NCBI GenBank assembly: GCA_947649365.1
Contig: CANSRH010000007.1
Span: forward strand, 854-64,853
Direction of reading: 5' to 3'
Origin: an uncultured Mycoplasmatota bacterium
GTDB lineage: Bacteria > Bacillota_I > Bacilli_A > RF39 > UBA660
DNA: 64,000 nt
The position numbers and the translations under genes were made by a program. This document shows positions 10,771 to 58,516 of the stretch, one piece after another (position 1 is the stretch's first letter; every line of letters starts with the position of its first letter). The notes under the pieces were generated by a model. It was not told the DNA's origin. It worked only from the letters and a program-made list of their open reading frames with translations, and ran no database searches.

Positions 10771-11053
10771 CCTATTCTTCTAATAGGATACCATAAAAAG
10801 CAAGCCTTTACAATTATTAAAAAAAGAGTGTTTAAACAACTTAAACAAATAATAAAGCATATGCCTTAAAAGACGAAAACCAATAAAATCAAAATGAACA
10901 TTTATAAAGACGAAACTTGTTATTATTTCTTAGAAAAAAAAATTGGTCTAAACAATTAGATAGACCGATTTAATTCGGTTATGTTTATTCTAAGTTGATT
11001 TGATAAAGATTTTTCTTTTTCAATCCAAAGAAAAAGAAGGTTGTTCCTCCCTT

Positions 11054-22228: not shown

Positions 22229-23485
22229 TTAAATAATAACAATTCGATAAGGATTCTCTATTGTTCCATCACCACTTTGGTATTGTACATCTGATTTTAA
22301 ATAGAACGTTGGACGAATATTATTTATATTAGAAGAATACATCACTCGATTTTGATTAGGATAACCATTAGGATATAATCCCCAAACAGCTTTTCCATAA
22401 GTGTTATCCACATAATTTTGTTCAGGTGAAATCGTCCATTCATAATATTTTTCTTCTAACAAATATAACCAAGCTTTATTTATATAGTCTTGTGCACTAT
22501 TGTAAATACTAGTAAACCAATAATTTTTTTCTATCGAAAAAGCATAATCAGAAGGATACATTAATCCAATATTAGATAGAAAATAAATATTTCCTCCACT
22601 CTTACCACTTATATTACTTCTCTCAACATTGTAAAATTGTTCAGCCGTATAAGTAGAATATTGATTATTAGCTGGTGCTCCTAAATACCATTTGGCTTGC
22701 CCTATAAATTGCTGATAATCTTTAATAGTATTCCAAAATACAGTATTTAAAACATCAGTATTTAAAGGACTTATCTCCCATATATTGCTACCATTGCTTT
22801 TATTCCAACGATACCCTTTCTTGCTTGGAGAATTTGTAGCATTTTCCAAAAAACCACTTTCCTCTTCAATATAAAAATCTGCTTTAATAAGTTTAACCCG
22901 ATTCTCATATTCTCCAGTTTCACTAGATTGAGTTGGTATCACTCCAATCACTCGATATAAATTATCATTCGTACAATTCTCACTACATCCAAAATAAATA
23001 TAATTATCTGGGTTAGATCCAACATATCGATAATCAGTTAAACTTGGTGTTTGTTCTGTTGATGCATGATCTATTTTTTCTATTCCTGCATTTGTACCAC
23101 TTAAACTAATTATATAATTATTCAACATGATTCCAGAAAAAAACTCTATTGTACATTTCACTTTTCCTTCATTGATATTTCGAATATTGGGTCCCCATTC
23201 TTCATAATCCCAATATCCTTCTGCTCCTTTATCACAAGTTATACTTACATCATACGCTCCCTTACTAGGTAACGTATTTATACTTTCTCCATCCATTGTA
23301 ATGGCAAGTTCCAAATCTCCACTAACAAACGATGGTACTCGTCCTCTTAGGACATTGAATGTCTTTTCTTCTTTATATAAAGCAAATGTTTTGTATAAGG
23401 TAATACTTCCTACTACAATTAGGATTCCCACTATACTAAATACTACTTGTTTCTTTCTTCTTTTGTTTTTACTAAACCTTTCCAA
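22229..23485 (-). CDS. Membrane-anchored secreted protein of unknown function, candidate phase-variable (paralog of 54530..55777)
   Basis: The 418-aa ORF has a signal anchor VVFSIVGILIVVGSITL and the C-terminal motif GDGTIENPYRIVII. In the ORF track it can only start at TTG without an RBS. An upstream ATG with a GGAGAG RBS is separated from the body by a G10 tract; see findings. Confidence 0.55.
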   Translation of the reverse strand: MERFSKNKRRKKQVVFSIVGILIVVGSITLYKTFALYKEEKTFNVLRGRVPSFVSGDLELAITMDGESINTLPSKGAYDVSITCDKGAEGYWDYEEWGPNIRNINEGKVKCTIEFFSGIMLNNYIISLSGTNAGIEKIDHASTEQTPSLTDYRYVGSNPDNYIYFGCSENCTNDNLYRVIGVIPTQSSETGEYENRVKLIKADFYIEEESGFLENATNSPSKKGYRWNKSNGSNIWEISPLNTDVLNTVFWNTIKDYQQFIGQAKWYLGAPANNQYSTYTAEQFYNVERSNISGKSGGNIYFLSNIGLMYPSDYAFSIEKNYWFTSIYNSAQDYINKAWLYLLEEKYYEWTISPEQNYVDNTYGKAVWGLYPNGYPNQNRVMYSSNINNIRPTFYLKSDVQYQSGDGTIENPYRIVII

Positions 23486-23507
23486 TCCTTCTGGTTTACT
23501 TAATGTA

Positions 23508-23517
23508 CCCCCCCCCC
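23508..23517 (-). repeat. Homopolymeric tract: C10 on plus strand (G10 on the coding minus strand) between an upstream ATG and the body of the 22229..23485 gene
   Basis: Counted directly in the sequence. Confidence 0.9.
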
Positions 23518-23642
23518 AGAAGTCTTGTTCTGGTTGGGAGATTGTTTTTTATCTTTTTCATTTCATCTCTCCTCTATTTTCTATTATTATTCTAACGTAA
23601 TCTTTATAGAAAAACAACTCAAAAAAAGAAAAACAGTAAGAA

Positions 23643-48411: not shown

Positions 48412-48466
48412 ATTTCCTCCTTCAATTTTTTTATAATAAACTATATGAAAAAGAAAAAAAAAAAGA

Positions 48467-54529: not shown

Positions 54530-55777
54530 CTACATGTCAATGCGATAAGGATTCTCTCTTGAACCATCACCACTTTTATATTTTATATTTGCTTTTAAAT
54601 AAAATACTGGTCGAACACCTTTCCCAACAGTAGAATGAGCCATAATCACTTCTCCTGTAGAAGAAATACTAACAACATAATACCCACCGTTTATACCCGA
54701 ACTCTCTTGAGTAATAACCCATTCATCGTATTTATTTTCTAAATTATAGAGCCAAGAACCAGATAAATAATTTCCAGTATAAGATTTTATAGACAAATCA
54801 AAATAATTGGTTCCAAGAGAATAGCCATAATCAGAAGGATACATAAGACCTATCTTTCCAAGAAATTGCAACATTCCTTTATTTACTCCTTTTGTAGAAG
54901 AACGTTCAATTTGATAAAACTGATTGGGAGAATAATTTTCATAACTACCATAAGTAATCGAACCCAAATACCATAAAGTATCTTCTACATAATTCTTGTA
55001 TTCCCCAAAACTATTCCAATAGACATCATTTAATACGTTTCTTTGTAACGTACTTTCTTCCCATTTAACCGTAGAATTATGATTCCAACTATATCCGACT
55101 CCATTCGTTGCAGAAGAAGAATTTTTTAAAAAACCACTACTCGTTTCTGTATAATTGCTTGCTTTAATTAACTTCACTCGATTCTCGTATTCTCCATCCA
55201 TACTTTTTTGAGTTGGTATCACTCCAATAATTCGATATAAATTGTCATCTGTACAATTCTCACTACATCCAAAATACACATAATTATTTACTTCTTCATT
55301 CGATCCAACATATCGATAATCTTCTAATGCTGGTGTCTGTTCTGTTGCTTCATGACTTACCTTGACTACATGATTACTCGTATCACTTAAATCCTTTATA
55401 TACTCACTAAAATATTTCCCTCGTTTAAATTGGATGGTACATTTTGTCTTTGTTTCTTTAATATTCTGAAGATAAGGTCCCCATCTTTCATAATCCCAAT
55501 ATCCTTTGGCCCCTTTATCACAAGTTATACTTACATCATACGCTCCCTTACTAGGTAATGTATTTATACTTTCTCCATCCATTGTAATGGCAAGTTCCAA
55601 ATCTCCACTAACAAACGATGGTACTCGTCCTCTTAGGACATTGAATGTCTTTTCTTCTTTATATAAAGCAAATGTTTTGTATAGTGTTATACTTCCTAGT
55701 ACTATCAGTATCCCTAATATAGAACCAAGTACTACTTTCTTGTTTCTTTTGTTTTTACTAAATTTTTCTAATTTCAA
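54530..55777 (-). CDS. Membrane-anchored secreted protein of unknown function, paralog of 22229..23485
   Basis: It shares a near-identical N-terminal ~95 aa (signal anchor through ITCDKGA) and scattered conserved blocks (YFGCSENCT.DNLYR.IGVIPTQ, ENRVKLIKA, IGLMYPSDY, GDGSRENPYRI). The start was set at the TTG 10 nt after AGGAGAG (MKLEKFSKNK); the ORF track extends it to 55876. Confidence 0.55.
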   Translation of the reverse strand: MKLEKFSKNKRNKKVVLGSILGILIVLGSITLYKTFALYKEEKTFNVLRGRVPSFVSGDLELAITMDGESINTLPSKGAYDVSITCDKGAKGYWDYERWGPYLQNIKETKTKCTIQFKRGKYFSEYIKDLSDTSNHVVKVSHEATEQTPALEDYRYVGSNEEVNNYVYFGCSENCTDDNLYRIIGVIPTQKSMDGEYENRVKLIKASNYTETSSGFLKNSSSATNGVGYSWNHNSTVKWEESTLQRNVLNDVYWNSFGEYKNYVEDTLWYLGSITYGSYENYSPNQFYQIERSSTKGVNKGMLQFLGKIGLMYPSDYGYSLGTNYFDLSIKSYTGNYLSGSWLYNLENKYDEWVITQESSGINGGYYVVSISSTGEVIMAHSTVGKGVRPVFYLKANIKYKSGDGSRENPYRIDM

Positions 55778-56820: not shown

Positions 56821-56962
56821 TTTATATACCTCTTTCTTCTACTATTATGTCTTAATTATAGCATAAAAATTCATAAAAGCTATCATTTTTTATAAAATAT
56901 ACAAAAAATCTGTAAATTTGTGGTATGATATAAAATGTAAGAATAAAAAAGGTGGTGGTTTC

Positions 56963-58516
56963 ATGCAAAAAATTTTGATGAGTATATCAAAAGAAACAAT
57001 ACGATTTACATACAAAGAAGAACCATCTTTTGCCATTAAATTAGATAAAGAACATACCACTACTTCCAATGAAATTTCATTTACAAAAGAATACATTACC
57101 ATTCATCAAAAAATAGTCACAGATTTTATTTTAGAGCTTTGTAAAGAGAAAAATATTCGTAGTGTTTCTTTTGAAACCTATGAACTTGCCCTATTTTTAT
57201 TGGAATTATTCAAAAAAAATCCAGAAATTCATGCGATTTGCATCCGTGAAGCTGCTCCTTTAACGTTTTCATTGTATGAAAAAATAATAGAAAACAAAAA
57301 CATTCATTATGTAGAAGCAGAAAGCATTCCAAAATACATGATTGAAATGCTAGACAAAAAAGGTATACGTTCTGAATCTCGGACAGAAATCTTCTATCCG
57401 AGTGAATTAATGCAAACCAACAACCTAGTGAGTTATTCCAAAATTTTTTATAAAACCAACATCCGCATTGGAACCATATTTACAGAAGAAGATCGCGACG
57501 ACTTTCTAGCGTTCTGTAACATCAACAATTACTTAAAAACCATTCATTTGGATATATTTAACAAACGAGATTTAGAATTTATTTTAGACAGCATTACAGA
57601 AAATCGAAGAAAAAATATTAACATCTTAATTCATGTCAACATAAAAGATTACAAAACCATTGAATACTTGAAAAAAACCAACAAAAGAATGAAAAAAAAC
57701 AAATTACACATTGATCTTGTCTATGACAAAGAATATTTAAAAAACAATTTATTTCCTCAAATTCTTATGAATATGTTAAAAATATGTGGTTTAATTTTAG
57801 TTATCTTTGTAGTAAGCATTATTAGTTACATCAGTATAAGCAATTACGTTGCCTTACAAGAAGTAACTCAAATACAAGAAAACCTAAAAGAAACCATTAA
57901 AGAAGGCAATACAGAAAATATAGAAATTGAAAACCCTATTGAAAAAGAAATCAAAAACGATTACATTGTATCCTTACTTCCAATTAACCCTGATGTCATT
58001 GGATGGTTAAAAGTAAACAACACCAATGTAGACTATCCAGTAGTCCAATCAAATGACAACGAATACTATTTAAAACACAATCTTTACAAAGAAACCGATA
58101 AAAATGGCTGGATATTTATGGATTATAGAAACTCTCACAACTTTTTAGATGCGAACACCATTATTTATGGCCACAACATGTACTATAGTGGAGTCATGTT
58201 TGGAACTCTTGTCAATGCTTACAAAAAAACCTGGTATACAAACCCTGAAAATCAAATCATTAGTTACGATACCATCTACGAAAGCAACAAATACCAAATC
58301 TTCTCTATTTATAAAGTACAAAAAACAAAAGATTATTTAAAAACTTATTTCGGTAGTGACGAAGAATTCAACAACTATGTTGATCTTGTAAAAGGAAGAA
58401 GCATTCATGACTTTGGAATAGAAGTCAACCCAGGAGACAAAATATTAACCCTTTCTACCTGCACAGGAGAAAATCAACGTCTCGTCATTCATGCCAAATT
58501 AATACCTGAGAGTTAA
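56963..58516 (+). CDS. srtB: Class B-like sortase with an unusual ~280-aa N-terminal cytoplasmic domain of unknown function
   Basis: The C-terminal ~230 aa carry sortase B hallmarks: YPVVQSNDNEYYLKHNLY, the catalytic His in IIYGHNM, the TLSTC catalytic Cys motif and RLVIHAKL. A TM helix sits at LILVIFVVSIISYISI. AGGTGGTGG precedes the ATG at 56963. Confidence 0.7.
   Translation: MQKILMSISKETIRFTYKEEPSFAIKLDKEHTTTSNEISFTKEYITIHQKIVTDFILELCKEKNIRSVSFETYELALFLLELFKKNPEIHAICIREAAPLTFSLYEKIIENKNIHYVEAESIPKYMIEMLDKKGIRSESRTEIFYPSELMQTNNLVSYSKIFYKTNIRIGTIFTEEDRDDFLAFCNINNYLKTIHLDIFNKRDLEFILDSITENRRKNINILIHVNIKDYKTIEYLKKTNKRMKKNKLHIDLVYDKEYLKNNLFPQILMNMLKICGLILVIFVVSIISYISISNYVALQEVTQIQENLKETIKEGNTENIEIENPIEKEIKNDYIVSLLPINPDVIGWLKVNNTNVDYPVVQSNDNEYYLKHNLYKETDKNGWIFMDYRNSHNFLDANTIIYGHNMYYSGVMFGTLVNAYKKTWYTNPENQIISYDTIYESNKYQIFSIYKVQKTKDYLKTYFGSDEEFNNYVDLVKGRSIHDFGIEVNPGDKILTLSTCTGENQRLVIHAKLIPES

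What the first reader, a model, noticed from the sequence alone, without database searches (positions are those of the whole stretch)
22229..23580. G10 homopolymer uncouples an ATG start from a 418-aa surface protein: candidate slipped-strand phase-variation switch
On the minus strand a GGAGAG RBS and ATG (plus coordinates about 23559-23575) open the reading frame MKKIKNNLPTRTRLL, which runs straight into a G10 tract (plus 23508-23517). With 10 G the frame hits TAA after 22 codons. The large downstream ORF can then only initiate at TTG with no usable RBS. With 9 or 12 G the ATG-initiated frame reads through (...LLGGGTLSKPEGLERFSKNK...) into the full membrane-anchored secreted protein. A 10-nt G/C run is very unexpected in a genome this AT-rich, and the encoded product is a secreted/surface protein, the classic combination for contingency loci.
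Basis: seen in the sequence. Interest (0 to 1): 0.8.

Follow-up and report, generated by a model that had tools for sequence, protein, structure and literature searches.

The report
Poly-G on/off switch in surface-protein gene
A run of ten G's sits between the start codon and the body of a membrane-anchored, lectin-like surface protein gene in an uncultured gut bacterium, and relatives of this gene carry the same run at different lengths, so it is most likely an ordinary slipped-strand phase-variation switch found in a new lineage and protein family.

Summary
On the minus strand, GGAGAG (23567-23572) and ATG (23559-23561) open a leader that runs into G10 (23508-23517). At G10 the frame stops after 21 codons. 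At G9 or G12 it gives a 443/444-aa protein. This is the only G/C run of 6 or more in the 64 kb window.

The gene belongs to a large unnamed family in uncultured gut 'Tenericutes'/Bacilli MAGs. About a quarter of the copies examined carry a G8-G11 tract at the 5' end, often inside the same portable leader (SD-ATG-..NLPT..-CTG-Gn). Near-identical loci from different assemblies differ only in tract length: G9/G10/G10/G11 at one locus, and G8/G9/G10 for one LPT-type leader (the G9 copy is degenerate). Protein variants identical apart from the N-terminus exist in both ON and OFF forms.

This supports a slipped-strand contingency switch. It could not be shown for this exact locus, which occurs only once in the databases.

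One oddity remains. 24 of 25 evaluable tracts are OFF, usually G10 where G9 would be in frame, and the LPT-type leaders are predicted to form a hairpin pairing CCUCCC with the G run. Some expression from G10 by recoding is therefore not excluded.

The parts
23567..23574 (-). Shine-Dalgarno sequence GAGGAGAG, 5 nt upstream of the leader ATG.
   Evidence: Read directly. The same AGGAGG/GGAGGA plus ATG arrangement is found in homologous leaders.
23496..23561 (-). Leader reading frame as assembled (G10): MKKIKNNLPTRTRLLGGGYIK plus TAA. At G9 or G12 the same ATG reads into the gene body.
   Evidence: The leader type M-(K-rich)-NLPT-x4-6-L-GGG recurs in 16 loci of other MAGs.
23508..23517 (-). G10 homopolymer (C10 on the + strand): the proposed slippage-prone switch.
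   Evidence: It is the only G/C run of 6 or more in the window. Homologous tracts vary between G8 and G11 in near-identical loci.
23507..23542 (-). Predicted leader hairpin. The pyrimidine arm AUCUCCC (23536-23542) pairs with the last six G's plus U. The inner stem is CCAGAA/UUCUGG.
   Evidence: -20.8 kcal/mol, z = -3.98, 0 of 200 shuffles fold as well. The same architecture is predicted in other LPT-type leaders. Function is inferred only.
22229..23507 (-). Body of the gene, read in the frame that G9 or G12 would join to the ATG. The stop is at 22229-22231. The mechanical ORF starts at TTG 23485.
   Evidence: It keeps all 31 columns that are invariant in a 22-member family alignment.
23393..23449 (-). 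N-terminal membrane anchor: KNKRRKK followed by QVVFSIVGILIVVGSITLY (residues about 38-56 of the restored 443-aa protein).
   Evidence: Sequence. The structure model places it within a long helix at residues 33-64. The source annotation P0001 starts inside this helix.
23135..23314 (-). Small beta-sandwich domain, residues about 83-142.
   Evidence: Structure model, strands 83-142, pLDDT about 80-84.
22232..23128 (-). C-type-lectin-like domain, residues about 145-443, ending in the family motif SGDGTxxNPYRI.
54530..55777 (-). Paralogue in the same window (P0005, 415 aa, 58% identity). It has no tract and no leader, and starts at a TTG 8 nt after GGAGAG.

Best explanation
The locus is a simple-sequence contingency switch. 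A short leader cassette (SD, ATG, about 15 codons, then a poly-G run) has replaced the ordinary start codon of a gene for a membrane-anchored, lectin-like surface protein. Strand slippage during DNA replication changes the number of G's.

- With 9 or 12 G's the ATG is in frame and the 443/444-aa protein is made.
- With 8, 10, 11 or 13 G's translation ends at a TAA within about 20 codons. The body then has no start codon with a usable ribosome-binding site.
- The assembled state, G10, is OFF and is one deletion away from ON.
- The gene is one of many paralogues per genome. Independent switching of each would give cell-to-cell variation in the displayed surface proteins.

Shown: the anatomy, the frame arithmetic, the family-wide association of G tracts with 5' ends, and length differences between near-identical homologous loci. 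Inferred: that this particular tract varies in its own population, that switching is reversible and frequent, and that the protein is exposed and binds a ligand.
For: (1) Anatomy and frame arithmetic.

(2) The tract is far from chance. It is the only G/C run of 6 or more in 64 kb, with 0.004 expected.

(3) Family-wide pattern. In 86 related loci (454 kb) there are 37 runs of G7 or longer on the gene strand and none of C. Runs of G8 or longer number 33 against 0.3 expected. Nearly all sit at 5' ends of family genes. 16 of 61 evaluable gene copies carry one.

(4) Allelic length variation.
- Short-leader orthologue: L003 G9 (in frame), L006 G10, L004 G10, L005 G11, with near-identical flanks.
- LPT-type leader, as in the window: L002 G8, L207 G9, L021 G10.
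- Proteins P0123 (MGGGYLK.., the N-terminus seen with G10 in L006) and P0124 (MKFKNFVGGGYLK.., the in-frame form seen with G9 in L003) are otherwise identical.
- One 90%-identity cluster holds 566-, 560- and 540-aa start variants.

(5) No conserved alternative start. The window's TTG corresponds to TTA, CTA or other codons in other cassette-bearing copies. Paralogues without the cassette start at M-K-L-E-K-F with their own SD.

(6) The body is intact and keeps all 31 family-invariant residues.

(7) The product looks like a surface ligand-binding protein: a TM anchor plus a C-type-lectin-like fold (PMC12237041).

(8) Precedents. Poly-G tracts in AT-rich C. jejuni have a modal length set by mutational pattern (PMC3401435). 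Consensus-OFF surface genes with minor ON variants were found in a metagenomic Mollicutes population (PMC5476646).
Against: - No population or second-strain data exist for this exact locus. P0001 and P0005 are singletons, and the closest other relative is 55-58% identical.
- 24 of 25 evaluable tracts are OFF (P = 5e-4 if one third were expected ON). 24 of 37 tracts are exactly G10. For a freely drifting switch that is a narrow distribution.
- The LPT-type leaders are predicted to form a stable hairpin involving the G run. Simple DNA slippage does not need this.
- Tract lengths come from short-read metagenome assemblies and were not checked against reads.
Confidence: 0.7

Rival explanations
1. 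Programmed recoding. G10 is the designed, stable genomic length. The protein is made from it by loss of one nucleotide in the mRNA (RNA polymerase realignment on the G run, helped by the nascent CCUCCC:G hairpin), or by a +1 ribosomal shift on the slow GGG codons. DNA-level variation would then be secondary.
For: - G10 is the length in 24 of 37 tracts, from independent assemblies and species. The in-frame length is almost always G10 minus one.
- A hairpin that uses exactly ten G's (2 in CUGG, 2 opposite AA, 6 opposite CCUCCC) is predicted in LPT-type leaders. All changes in the pyrimidine arm are C-to-U, which still pair with G.
- Hairpin-stimulated transcriptional realignment has a precedent in Roseiflexus IS630. 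Internal SD-like G-rich stimulators of +1 shifting are known from prfB (PMC5009743).
Against: - Tract length does vary between near-identical loci (G8 to G11). G9 in-frame alleles are the assembled majority in some samples.
- The short-leader orthologue group has no pyrimidine arm, yet G10 is also its commonest allele. The hairpin is therefore not needed to explain the G10 mode.
- No compensatory covariation can be scored, because the G arm is invariant. The arm also encodes the conserved N-L-P-T.
- The review consulted describes efficient bacterial RNA-polymerase slippage for runs of nine A or T (PMC5009743). No G-run case was found.
Confidence: 0.12
2. Sequencing or assembly artefact. The true tract is G9 (or another in-frame length) and the gene is simply expressed.
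For: Homopolymers of 10 are error-prone, the source is a metagenome-assembled contig, and reads cannot be inspected here.
Against: - G10 is seen in contigs whose names point to different assemblers and studies (NODE_, k141_ and scaffold types), and G8, G9 and G11 are also reported. There is no length cap or uniform +1 bias.
- Even at G9 a run of this length in a 31% G+C genome would remain hypermutable, so the biological conclusion would change little.
Confidence: 0.06
3. Decaying pseudogene. A frameshift happened to fall in a G run and the gene is dead.
For: The assembled state is out of frame. One related copy (L207) carries a second frameshift and breaks off.
Against: - The 418-codon body is uninterrupted and keeps all 31 family-invariant positions.
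- The structure model is confident.
- The only defect lies exactly in a cassette that recurs in front of intact paralogues in many genomes.
Confidence: 0.05
4. The body is translated independently of the tract. Candidates are the TTG at 23485, the GTG chosen by the source annotation, or reinitiation after the leader's TAA 10 nt upstream of the TTG. The tract would then be irrelevant to expression.
For: - A TTG lies in frame 10 nt after the leader stop codon.
- The paralogue P0005 itself uses a TTG start.
- The deposited annotation calls a 400-aa product.
Against: - AGAAGGA abuts the TTG with no spacer, whereas the paralogue has GGAGAG 8 nt upstream.
- The TTG is not conserved in other cassette-bearing genes.
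- The annotated GTG start would delete the charged N-region and a third of the membrane helix.
Confidence: 0.05

Closest known systems
Poly-G/C contingency genes of Campylobacter jejuni (for example cj1139 and cj0031; PMC3401435)
   Same: AT-rich genome. G8-G11 tracts inside coding regions of surface-related genes. Frameshift ON/OFF. There is a modal tract length, with insertions from short tracts and deletions from long tracts.
   Different: Different phylum and an unrelated protein family. Here the tract sits in a dedicated leader placed upstream of the ancestral start. The modal length (G10) is nearly always out of frame. Switching rates are unmeasured.
Neisseria opa genes (CTCTT repeats in the signal-peptide coding region; from general knowledge, not tested here)
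   Same: A multi-copy family of surface adhesins. Each copy has its own repeat in the 5' coding region ahead of the mature protein, and most copies are OFF at any time.
   Different: The repeat is a pentanucleotide rather than a homopolymer. The organism is Gram-negative with an outer membrane and the fold is unrelated.
Simple-sequence-repeat switching of surface proteins in Mollicutes, for example the BspA-like genes of Candidatus Mycoplasma girerdii seen in metagenomic reads (PMC5476646)
   Same: A related reduced-genome lineage of Bacilli. The consensus allele is OFF with minor ON variants. The phenomenon was detected by genome-resolved metagenomics.
   Different: Those repeats are mostly dinucleotide and the proteins are unrelated.
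N-terminal domain of the Thomasclavelia ramosa IgA protease (PDB 9qa6; PMC12237041)
   Different: There is no M64 catalytic domain here. No sequence-level match was found with a family profile against PDB sequences or with Pfam. The function of that domain is itself unknown, and it is dispensable for IgA cleavage.
Recoding signals: prfB +1 frameshift with an internal SD-like stimulator, and Roseiflexus IS630 hairpin-dependent transcriptional realignment (PMC5009743)
   Same: A G-rich, SD-like element or a nascent hairpin next to a slippery run. The productive frame needs a one-nucleotide adjustment.
   Different: The run length is not fixed between alleles here. No slow codon or stop sits at the shift position, and there is no experimental evidence.

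Membership tests
Simple-sequence-repeat contingency locus (translational phase variation) | Homopolymer or short repeat long enough to be slippage-prone (about 7 or more) within or just after the start of a coding region. | tested here: met
   G10 at 23508-23517, 15 codons after the ATG.
Simple-sequence-repeat contingency locus (translational phase variation) | A change of repeat number moves the start codon in or out of frame with a long intact ORF. | tested here: met
   G9 or G12 gives 443/444 aa. G8, G10, G11 and G13 give 19-22 aa.
Simple-sequence-repeat contingency locus (translational phase variation) | Repeat number differs between closely related strains or populations at the same locus. 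| tested here: inconclusive
   Met for homologous loci: G9/G10/G10/G11 in L003/L006/L004/L005, G8/G9/G10 in L002/L207/L021, and P0123 versus P0124. Not testable for the window's own locus, which is a singleton in the collection.
Simple-sequence-repeat contingency locus (translational phase variation) | High-frequency, reversible switching within a clonal population. | not testable with these tools
   Needs reads or cultures.
Simple-sequence-repeat contingency locus (translational phase variation) | The product acts at the cell surface or in a host or phage interaction. | tested here: inconclusive
   An N-terminal charged segment plus a hydrophobic helix, a beta-sandwich and a C-type-lectin-like domain in a confident model. 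Topology and ligand are inferred.
Programmed frameshift or transcriptional slippage site | A slippery run of fixed length conserved across orthologues. | tested here: not met
   Lengths G8 to G11 occur at near-identical loci, although G10 accounts for 24 of 37 tracts.
Programmed frameshift or transcriptional slippage site | A conserved stimulatory element (hairpin or SD-like sequence) at a defined distance. | tested here: inconclusive
   A hairpin is predicted in LPT-type leaders. It is absent from the short-leader type, and no compensatory changes are possible.
Programmed frameshift or transcriptional slippage site | A trans-frame product or edited mRNA is observed. | not testable with these tools
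   Needs a transcriptome or proteome.
C-type-lectin-like fold, IgAse N-terminal-domain type | Significant structural superposition on a solved member. | tested here: met
C-type-lectin-like fold, IgAse N-terminal-domain type | Detectable sequence homology to a described family. | tested here: not met
   No Pfam family at E of 1 or better. Only a sub-threshold NCBIfam hit on the membrane segment. No PDB sequence at E of 1 or better with the family profile.
C-type-lectin-like fold, IgAse N-terminal-domain type | Structural zinc site (Asp/His/Cys) of the IgAse N-terminal domain. | not tested
   Residue-level superposition was not available.

The most novel reading that the evidence does not exclude
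The leader is a portable 'biased switch' cassette that combines two layers. The genomic tract rests at G10, one G too many. A nascent-RNA hairpin between the conserved CCUCCC and the G run promotes loss of one G in the transcript, or a +1 ribosomal shift on the GGG codons. 'OFF' alleles would then give a set low level of protein. In shorter alleles (G8), CCUCC is instead predicted to pair with the Shine-Dalgarno sequence and shut initiation. Tract length would thus select among several expression levels rather than simply on or off.
Probability: 0.12. Interest if true: 0.75.

Novelty: new member of a known kind. Interest (0 to 1): 0.45.

Why it matters
Homopolymer phase variation is textbook for Campylobacter, Helicobacter, Neisseria, Haemophilus and mycoplasmas. 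The paper searches run here found no description of it for the uncultured, reduced-genome gut 'Tenericutes'/Bacilli lineages that are common in animal and human guts.

If correct, these organisms carry a multi-copy, individually switchable repertoire of lectin-like surface proteins. The closest solved structural relative of that domain is part of a gut-bacterial IgA protease. This points to antigenic or adhesive variation under host (for example IgA) or phage pressure in commensals that cannot yet be grown.

There is also a practical consequence. Gene callers mis-start or truncate these genes, as in the 400-aa deposited product here. Consensus MAGs therefore under-report the family.

Tried and rejected
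(1) Metagenome scan with the DNA pattern CTCCCAACN{10,22}CTGGGGGG. It was too unspecific. Of 120 loci, almost all were from high-G+C environmental contigs and none was related to the family.

(2) Exact look-up of the deposited product P0001: not on record, so the source contig and its sample could not be reached. Cluster look-up gave singletons without accession numbers.

(3) Profile search with in-frame translations of the leaders (A3). Only 4 hits came back. One (P0155, locus L207) is an in-frame G9 leader, but its gene body is broken. The query is too short for this to count as evidence on how common ON alleles are.

(4) Pfam, NCBIfam and PDB-sequence searches gave no family name.

(5) The AlphaFold-database fold library was unavailable.

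(6) The consensus promoter and terminator scan found nothing convincing upstream of the leader. By eye there is TTGTTT, a 17-nt spacer and TAGAAT about 25 nt upstream of the SD. That is weak evidence, so co-transcription with the upstream M16 peptidase genes is equally possible.

(7) Covariation test of the leader hairpin is uninformative, because one arm is an invariant G run.

(8) Rejected: a sortase-type LPxTG meaning for the leader's 'LPT'. It is N-terminal and cytoplasmic, and it does not fit the motif.

Full report
**Observation**

On the minus strand the sequence reads ...tagaGGAGAGatgaaATGaaaaagataaaaaacaatctcccaaccagaacaagacttctGGGGGGGGGGtacattaagTAAaccagaaggaTTGgaaagg....
- GGAGAG lies at 23567-23572, the ATG at 23561-23559 and the G10 tract at 23508-23517.
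- As assembled, the ATG frame ends at TAA (23498-23496) after 21 codons.
- Replacing G10 by G9 or G12 gives one open frame of 443 or 444 codons to the stop at 22229-22231. G8, G11 and G13 all stop within 19-22 codons.
- The mechanical ORF list starts the body at TTG 23485 (418 aa). The deposited annotation (P0001, 400 aa) starts still further in, at a GTG inside the hydrophobic helix.
- The tract is the only G or C run of 6 or more in 64 kb of 31% G+C DNA. The expected number of such 10-mers is 0.004.

**What the gene encodes**

The restored protein has no Pfam match and only a sub-threshold NCBIfam hit on its membrane segment. It has 459 relatives at E of 1e-3 or better in the large protein collection, and none of the 120 listed carries a name.

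A genome scan with a family alignment returned 80 loci (211 matches).
- Most come from MAGs labelled uncultured Tenericutes or Bacilli. There are also Clostridium sp. CAG:609 and Candidatus Onthocola stercoravium, and a few bins labelled otherwise.
- The sample and record names point to gut or faecal sources.
- There are many paralogues per genome, with more than 15 loci from one bin.

An AlphaFold model built on 22 family members is confident (mean pLDDT 83.6, pTM 0.74). It shows:
- a disordered N-terminus;
- a long helix at residues 33-64 containing KNKRRKK and QVVFSIVGILIVVGSITLY;
- a small beta-sandwich at residues 83-142;
- a large alpha/beta domain at residues 145-443 with pLDDT mostly above 90.

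The product is therefore best described as a membrane-anchored surface protein with a lectin-like ligand-binding head. Topology and ligand are inferred.

The flanking genes are housekeeping: two M16 peptidases upstream, and EzrA, a class-V aminotransferase and ThiI downstream. A paralogue lies in the same window at 54530-55777 (58% identity). It has no tract and starts at a TTG 8 nt after GGAGAG.

**The tract is a family feature, not an accident of this gene**

Homologues in other genomes have the same 5' structure. Examples are L001 (aggagg..ATG AAT AGT TTC AAA AAG AAC CTC CCA ACC ...CTG-G10) and L002 (ggagga..ATG..ATC CTC CCA ACT...CTG-G8).

Across 86 loci (454 kb):
- There are 37 runs of G7 or longer on the gene strand and none of C.
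- Runs of G8 or longer number 33 against 0.3 expected.
- 16 of 61 evaluable gene copies carry a run of G8 or longer at the 5' end. All are among the closer relatives.

The tracts occur in several contexts:
- the 'LPT' leader, as in the window (M, K-rich, N-L-P-T, 4-6 residues, L, GGG), fused to two different kinds of gene body;
- a short leader, MKFKNF(I/V)GGG;
- tracts inside the codons of the membrane helix (..IILGGGILIYRSYALY);
- poly-G in the spacer between TTGACA and TATAAT upstream of a neighbouring gene.

In paralogues without the cassette the protein begins M-K-L-E-K-F-x-K-N-K. In cassette-bearing copies the corresponding codons read P-E-x-L-K/E-R/K-F and contain no conserved start. 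The window's TTG is TTA, CTA or another codon elsewhere. The cassette has therefore taken over translation initiation for these copies.

**Evidence that tract length changes**

The short-leader orthologue was recovered from four assemblies. Three have near-identical flanks. L004 matches only from about 18 nt before the tract, and its upstream sequence differs. The alleles are G9 (L003, in frame from the ATG), G10 (L006, L004) and G11 (L005).

At protein level, P0124 (MKFKNFVGGGYLK.., 566 aa) and P0123 (MGGGYLK.., 560 aa) are otherwise identical. The MGGGYLK call is the one seen with G10 in L006.

The variants whose N-termini were read represent these numbers of contigs:

| Variant | Reading | Contigs |
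|---|---|---|
| MKFKNF[IV]GGG, 566 aa | in frame (G9 in L003) | 9 |
| MGGGYLK, 560 aa | out of frame (G10 in L006) | 34 |
| truncated call, 540 aa | out of frame | 2 |

For the LPT-type leader, three very similar sequences carry G8 (L002), G9 (L207) and G10 (L021). L207 is otherwise a broken copy.

This is the comparative signature of a hypermutable tract. It could not be obtained for the window's own locus, whose product is a singleton.

**An unexplained regularity**

- Of 25 tracts with a recognisable SD-ATG upstream and a long ORF downstream, 24 are out of frame. This count includes the window and a few redundant loci.
- Usually the tract is G10 where G9 would be in frame. The probability of at most one ON in 25 is 5e-4 if one third were expected ON.
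- G10 is also the commonest allele in the well-sampled short-leader group. G9 (ON) is a substantial minority there and is the assembled allele in some samples.

The simplest reading has two parts. G10 is the mutational resting length: in C. jejuni there is a modal length, with insertions from G8 and deletions from G11 (PMC3401435). And the family is kept mostly OFF, one deletion from ON, as expected for a large repertoire of surface proteins. In a metagenomic Mollicutes population the consensus was likewise OFF with minor ON variants (PMC5476646).

An alternative or additional layer cannot be excluded. In the LPT-type leaders a pyrimidine arm (CCUCCC, in the window UCUCCC) is predicted to pair with the last six G's. 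AA lies opposite two G's, and CCAG pairs with CUGG.
- In the window this hairpin has -20.8 kcal/mol and z = -4.0, and no shuffle folds as well.
- The same design is seen in 14 leaders. All arm substitutions are C-to-U, and one pair is broken.
- In G8 alleles the minimum-energy fold instead pairs CCUCC with the Shine-Dalgarno GGAGG.

Hairpin-assisted transcriptional realignment and SD-like stimulators of +1 shifting are known elsewhere (PMC5009743). However, the short-leader type lacks the arm and still rests at G10, the arm also encodes the conserved N-L-P-T, and covariation cannot be scored against an invariant G arm. I give recoding 0.12.

**Other rivals**

- Assembly artefact (0.06). G10 recurs in contigs whose names point to different assemblers, and G8, G9 and G11 are also reported.
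- Dead pseudogene (0.05). The body is uninterrupted, keeps all 31 family-invariant residues and models confidently.
- Independent initiation at the TTG or GTG, or reinitiation after the leader stop (0.05). The purine-rich stretch abuts the TTG with no spacer, the TTG is not conserved, and the annotated GTG would remove the charged segment and part of the helix.

**Comparison with known systems**

In mechanism this is the classical homopolymer contingency locus, closest to C. jejuni poly-G genes. In organisation it resembles the Neisseria opa family, a multi-copy adhesin family with a repeat in the 5' coding region of each copy (general knowledge, not tested here).

What is new is the setting: an uncultured gut 'Tenericutes'/Bacilli lineage, an undescribed lectin-like surface family, a modular leader cassette that replaces the native start, and a strong OFF bias. 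My paper searches found no description of this family or of poly-G switching in these lineages. Absence from that library is not proof of novelty.

**Verdict**

- It is a new member of a known kind. Interest is 0.45.
- Confidence in the slipped-strand switch is 0.7.

Noticed in passing
L003:3315-3325 and L005:3246-3255: A poly-G run (G11 and G10) lies in the spacer between TTGACA and TATAAT upstream of the next gene (507 aa, no Pfam). It looks like a promoter-spacer type phase switch in the same lineage. At G10/G11 the spacer would be 20-21 nt.
   Followed up: partly
L046:710-719 and 2025-2034; L051:1321-1330; also L041:3-12 and L051:2-11: In some family members the G10 tract lies inside the codons of the membrane helix (..IILGGGILIYRSYALY) rather than in a leader. 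It is again one G longer than the in-frame length, and a CCCUCC motif lies upstream.
   Followed up: partly
L002:2995-3070, L032:2380-2450, L048:2340-2415: In one MAG lineage a second ATG overlaps the Shine-Dalgarno sequence (agATGgaggaagaaaATG) in a different frame. Read directly for L002 (P0053), the G8 allele is in frame with this upstream ATG. By the same 14-nt spacing the same should hold for L032 and L048. G9 would be in frame with the SD-served ATG. This may give three expression states, or it may be coincidence.
   Followed up: no
window 54530-55777 (-) and 56918-58516 (+): A paralogue of the gene (58% identity, no tract, TTG start with its own GGAGAG) lies close to, and divergent from, a 532-aa ORF with a C-terminal sortase domain.
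   Followed up: partly
window 23393-23432 (-): The deposited gene model (P0001, 400 aa) starts at a GTG inside the hydrophobic helix. Gene callers give several different false starts for family members depending on tract length (MGGGYLK, MLGGGYLK, MLIIGTS...).
   Followed up: yes
L207:1-640: An in-frame G9 copy of the LPT-type leader is followed by a second frameshift at an A-rich stretch, and the family sequence is lost after about 300 nt. It is a degenerate copy or a chimeric contig.
   Followed up: partly
window 1-64000: GC skew is strongly negative on the + strand throughout. 27 of the 30 ORFs of 250 aa or more are on the minus strand. All 37 poly-G runs in related loci are G on the sense strand and never C.
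   Followed up: no
window 48454-48464: There is an A11 run, and also A9 or T9 runs at 10934, 17510 and 39530. In a 69% A+T genome these may be chance. Their positions relative to genes were not examined.
   Followed up: no
window 23564-23566 (-): A first ATG, 5 nt upstream of the leader ATG, opens a two-codon ORF (ATG AAA TGA) overlapping the real start. It is probably irrelevant.
   Followed up: no
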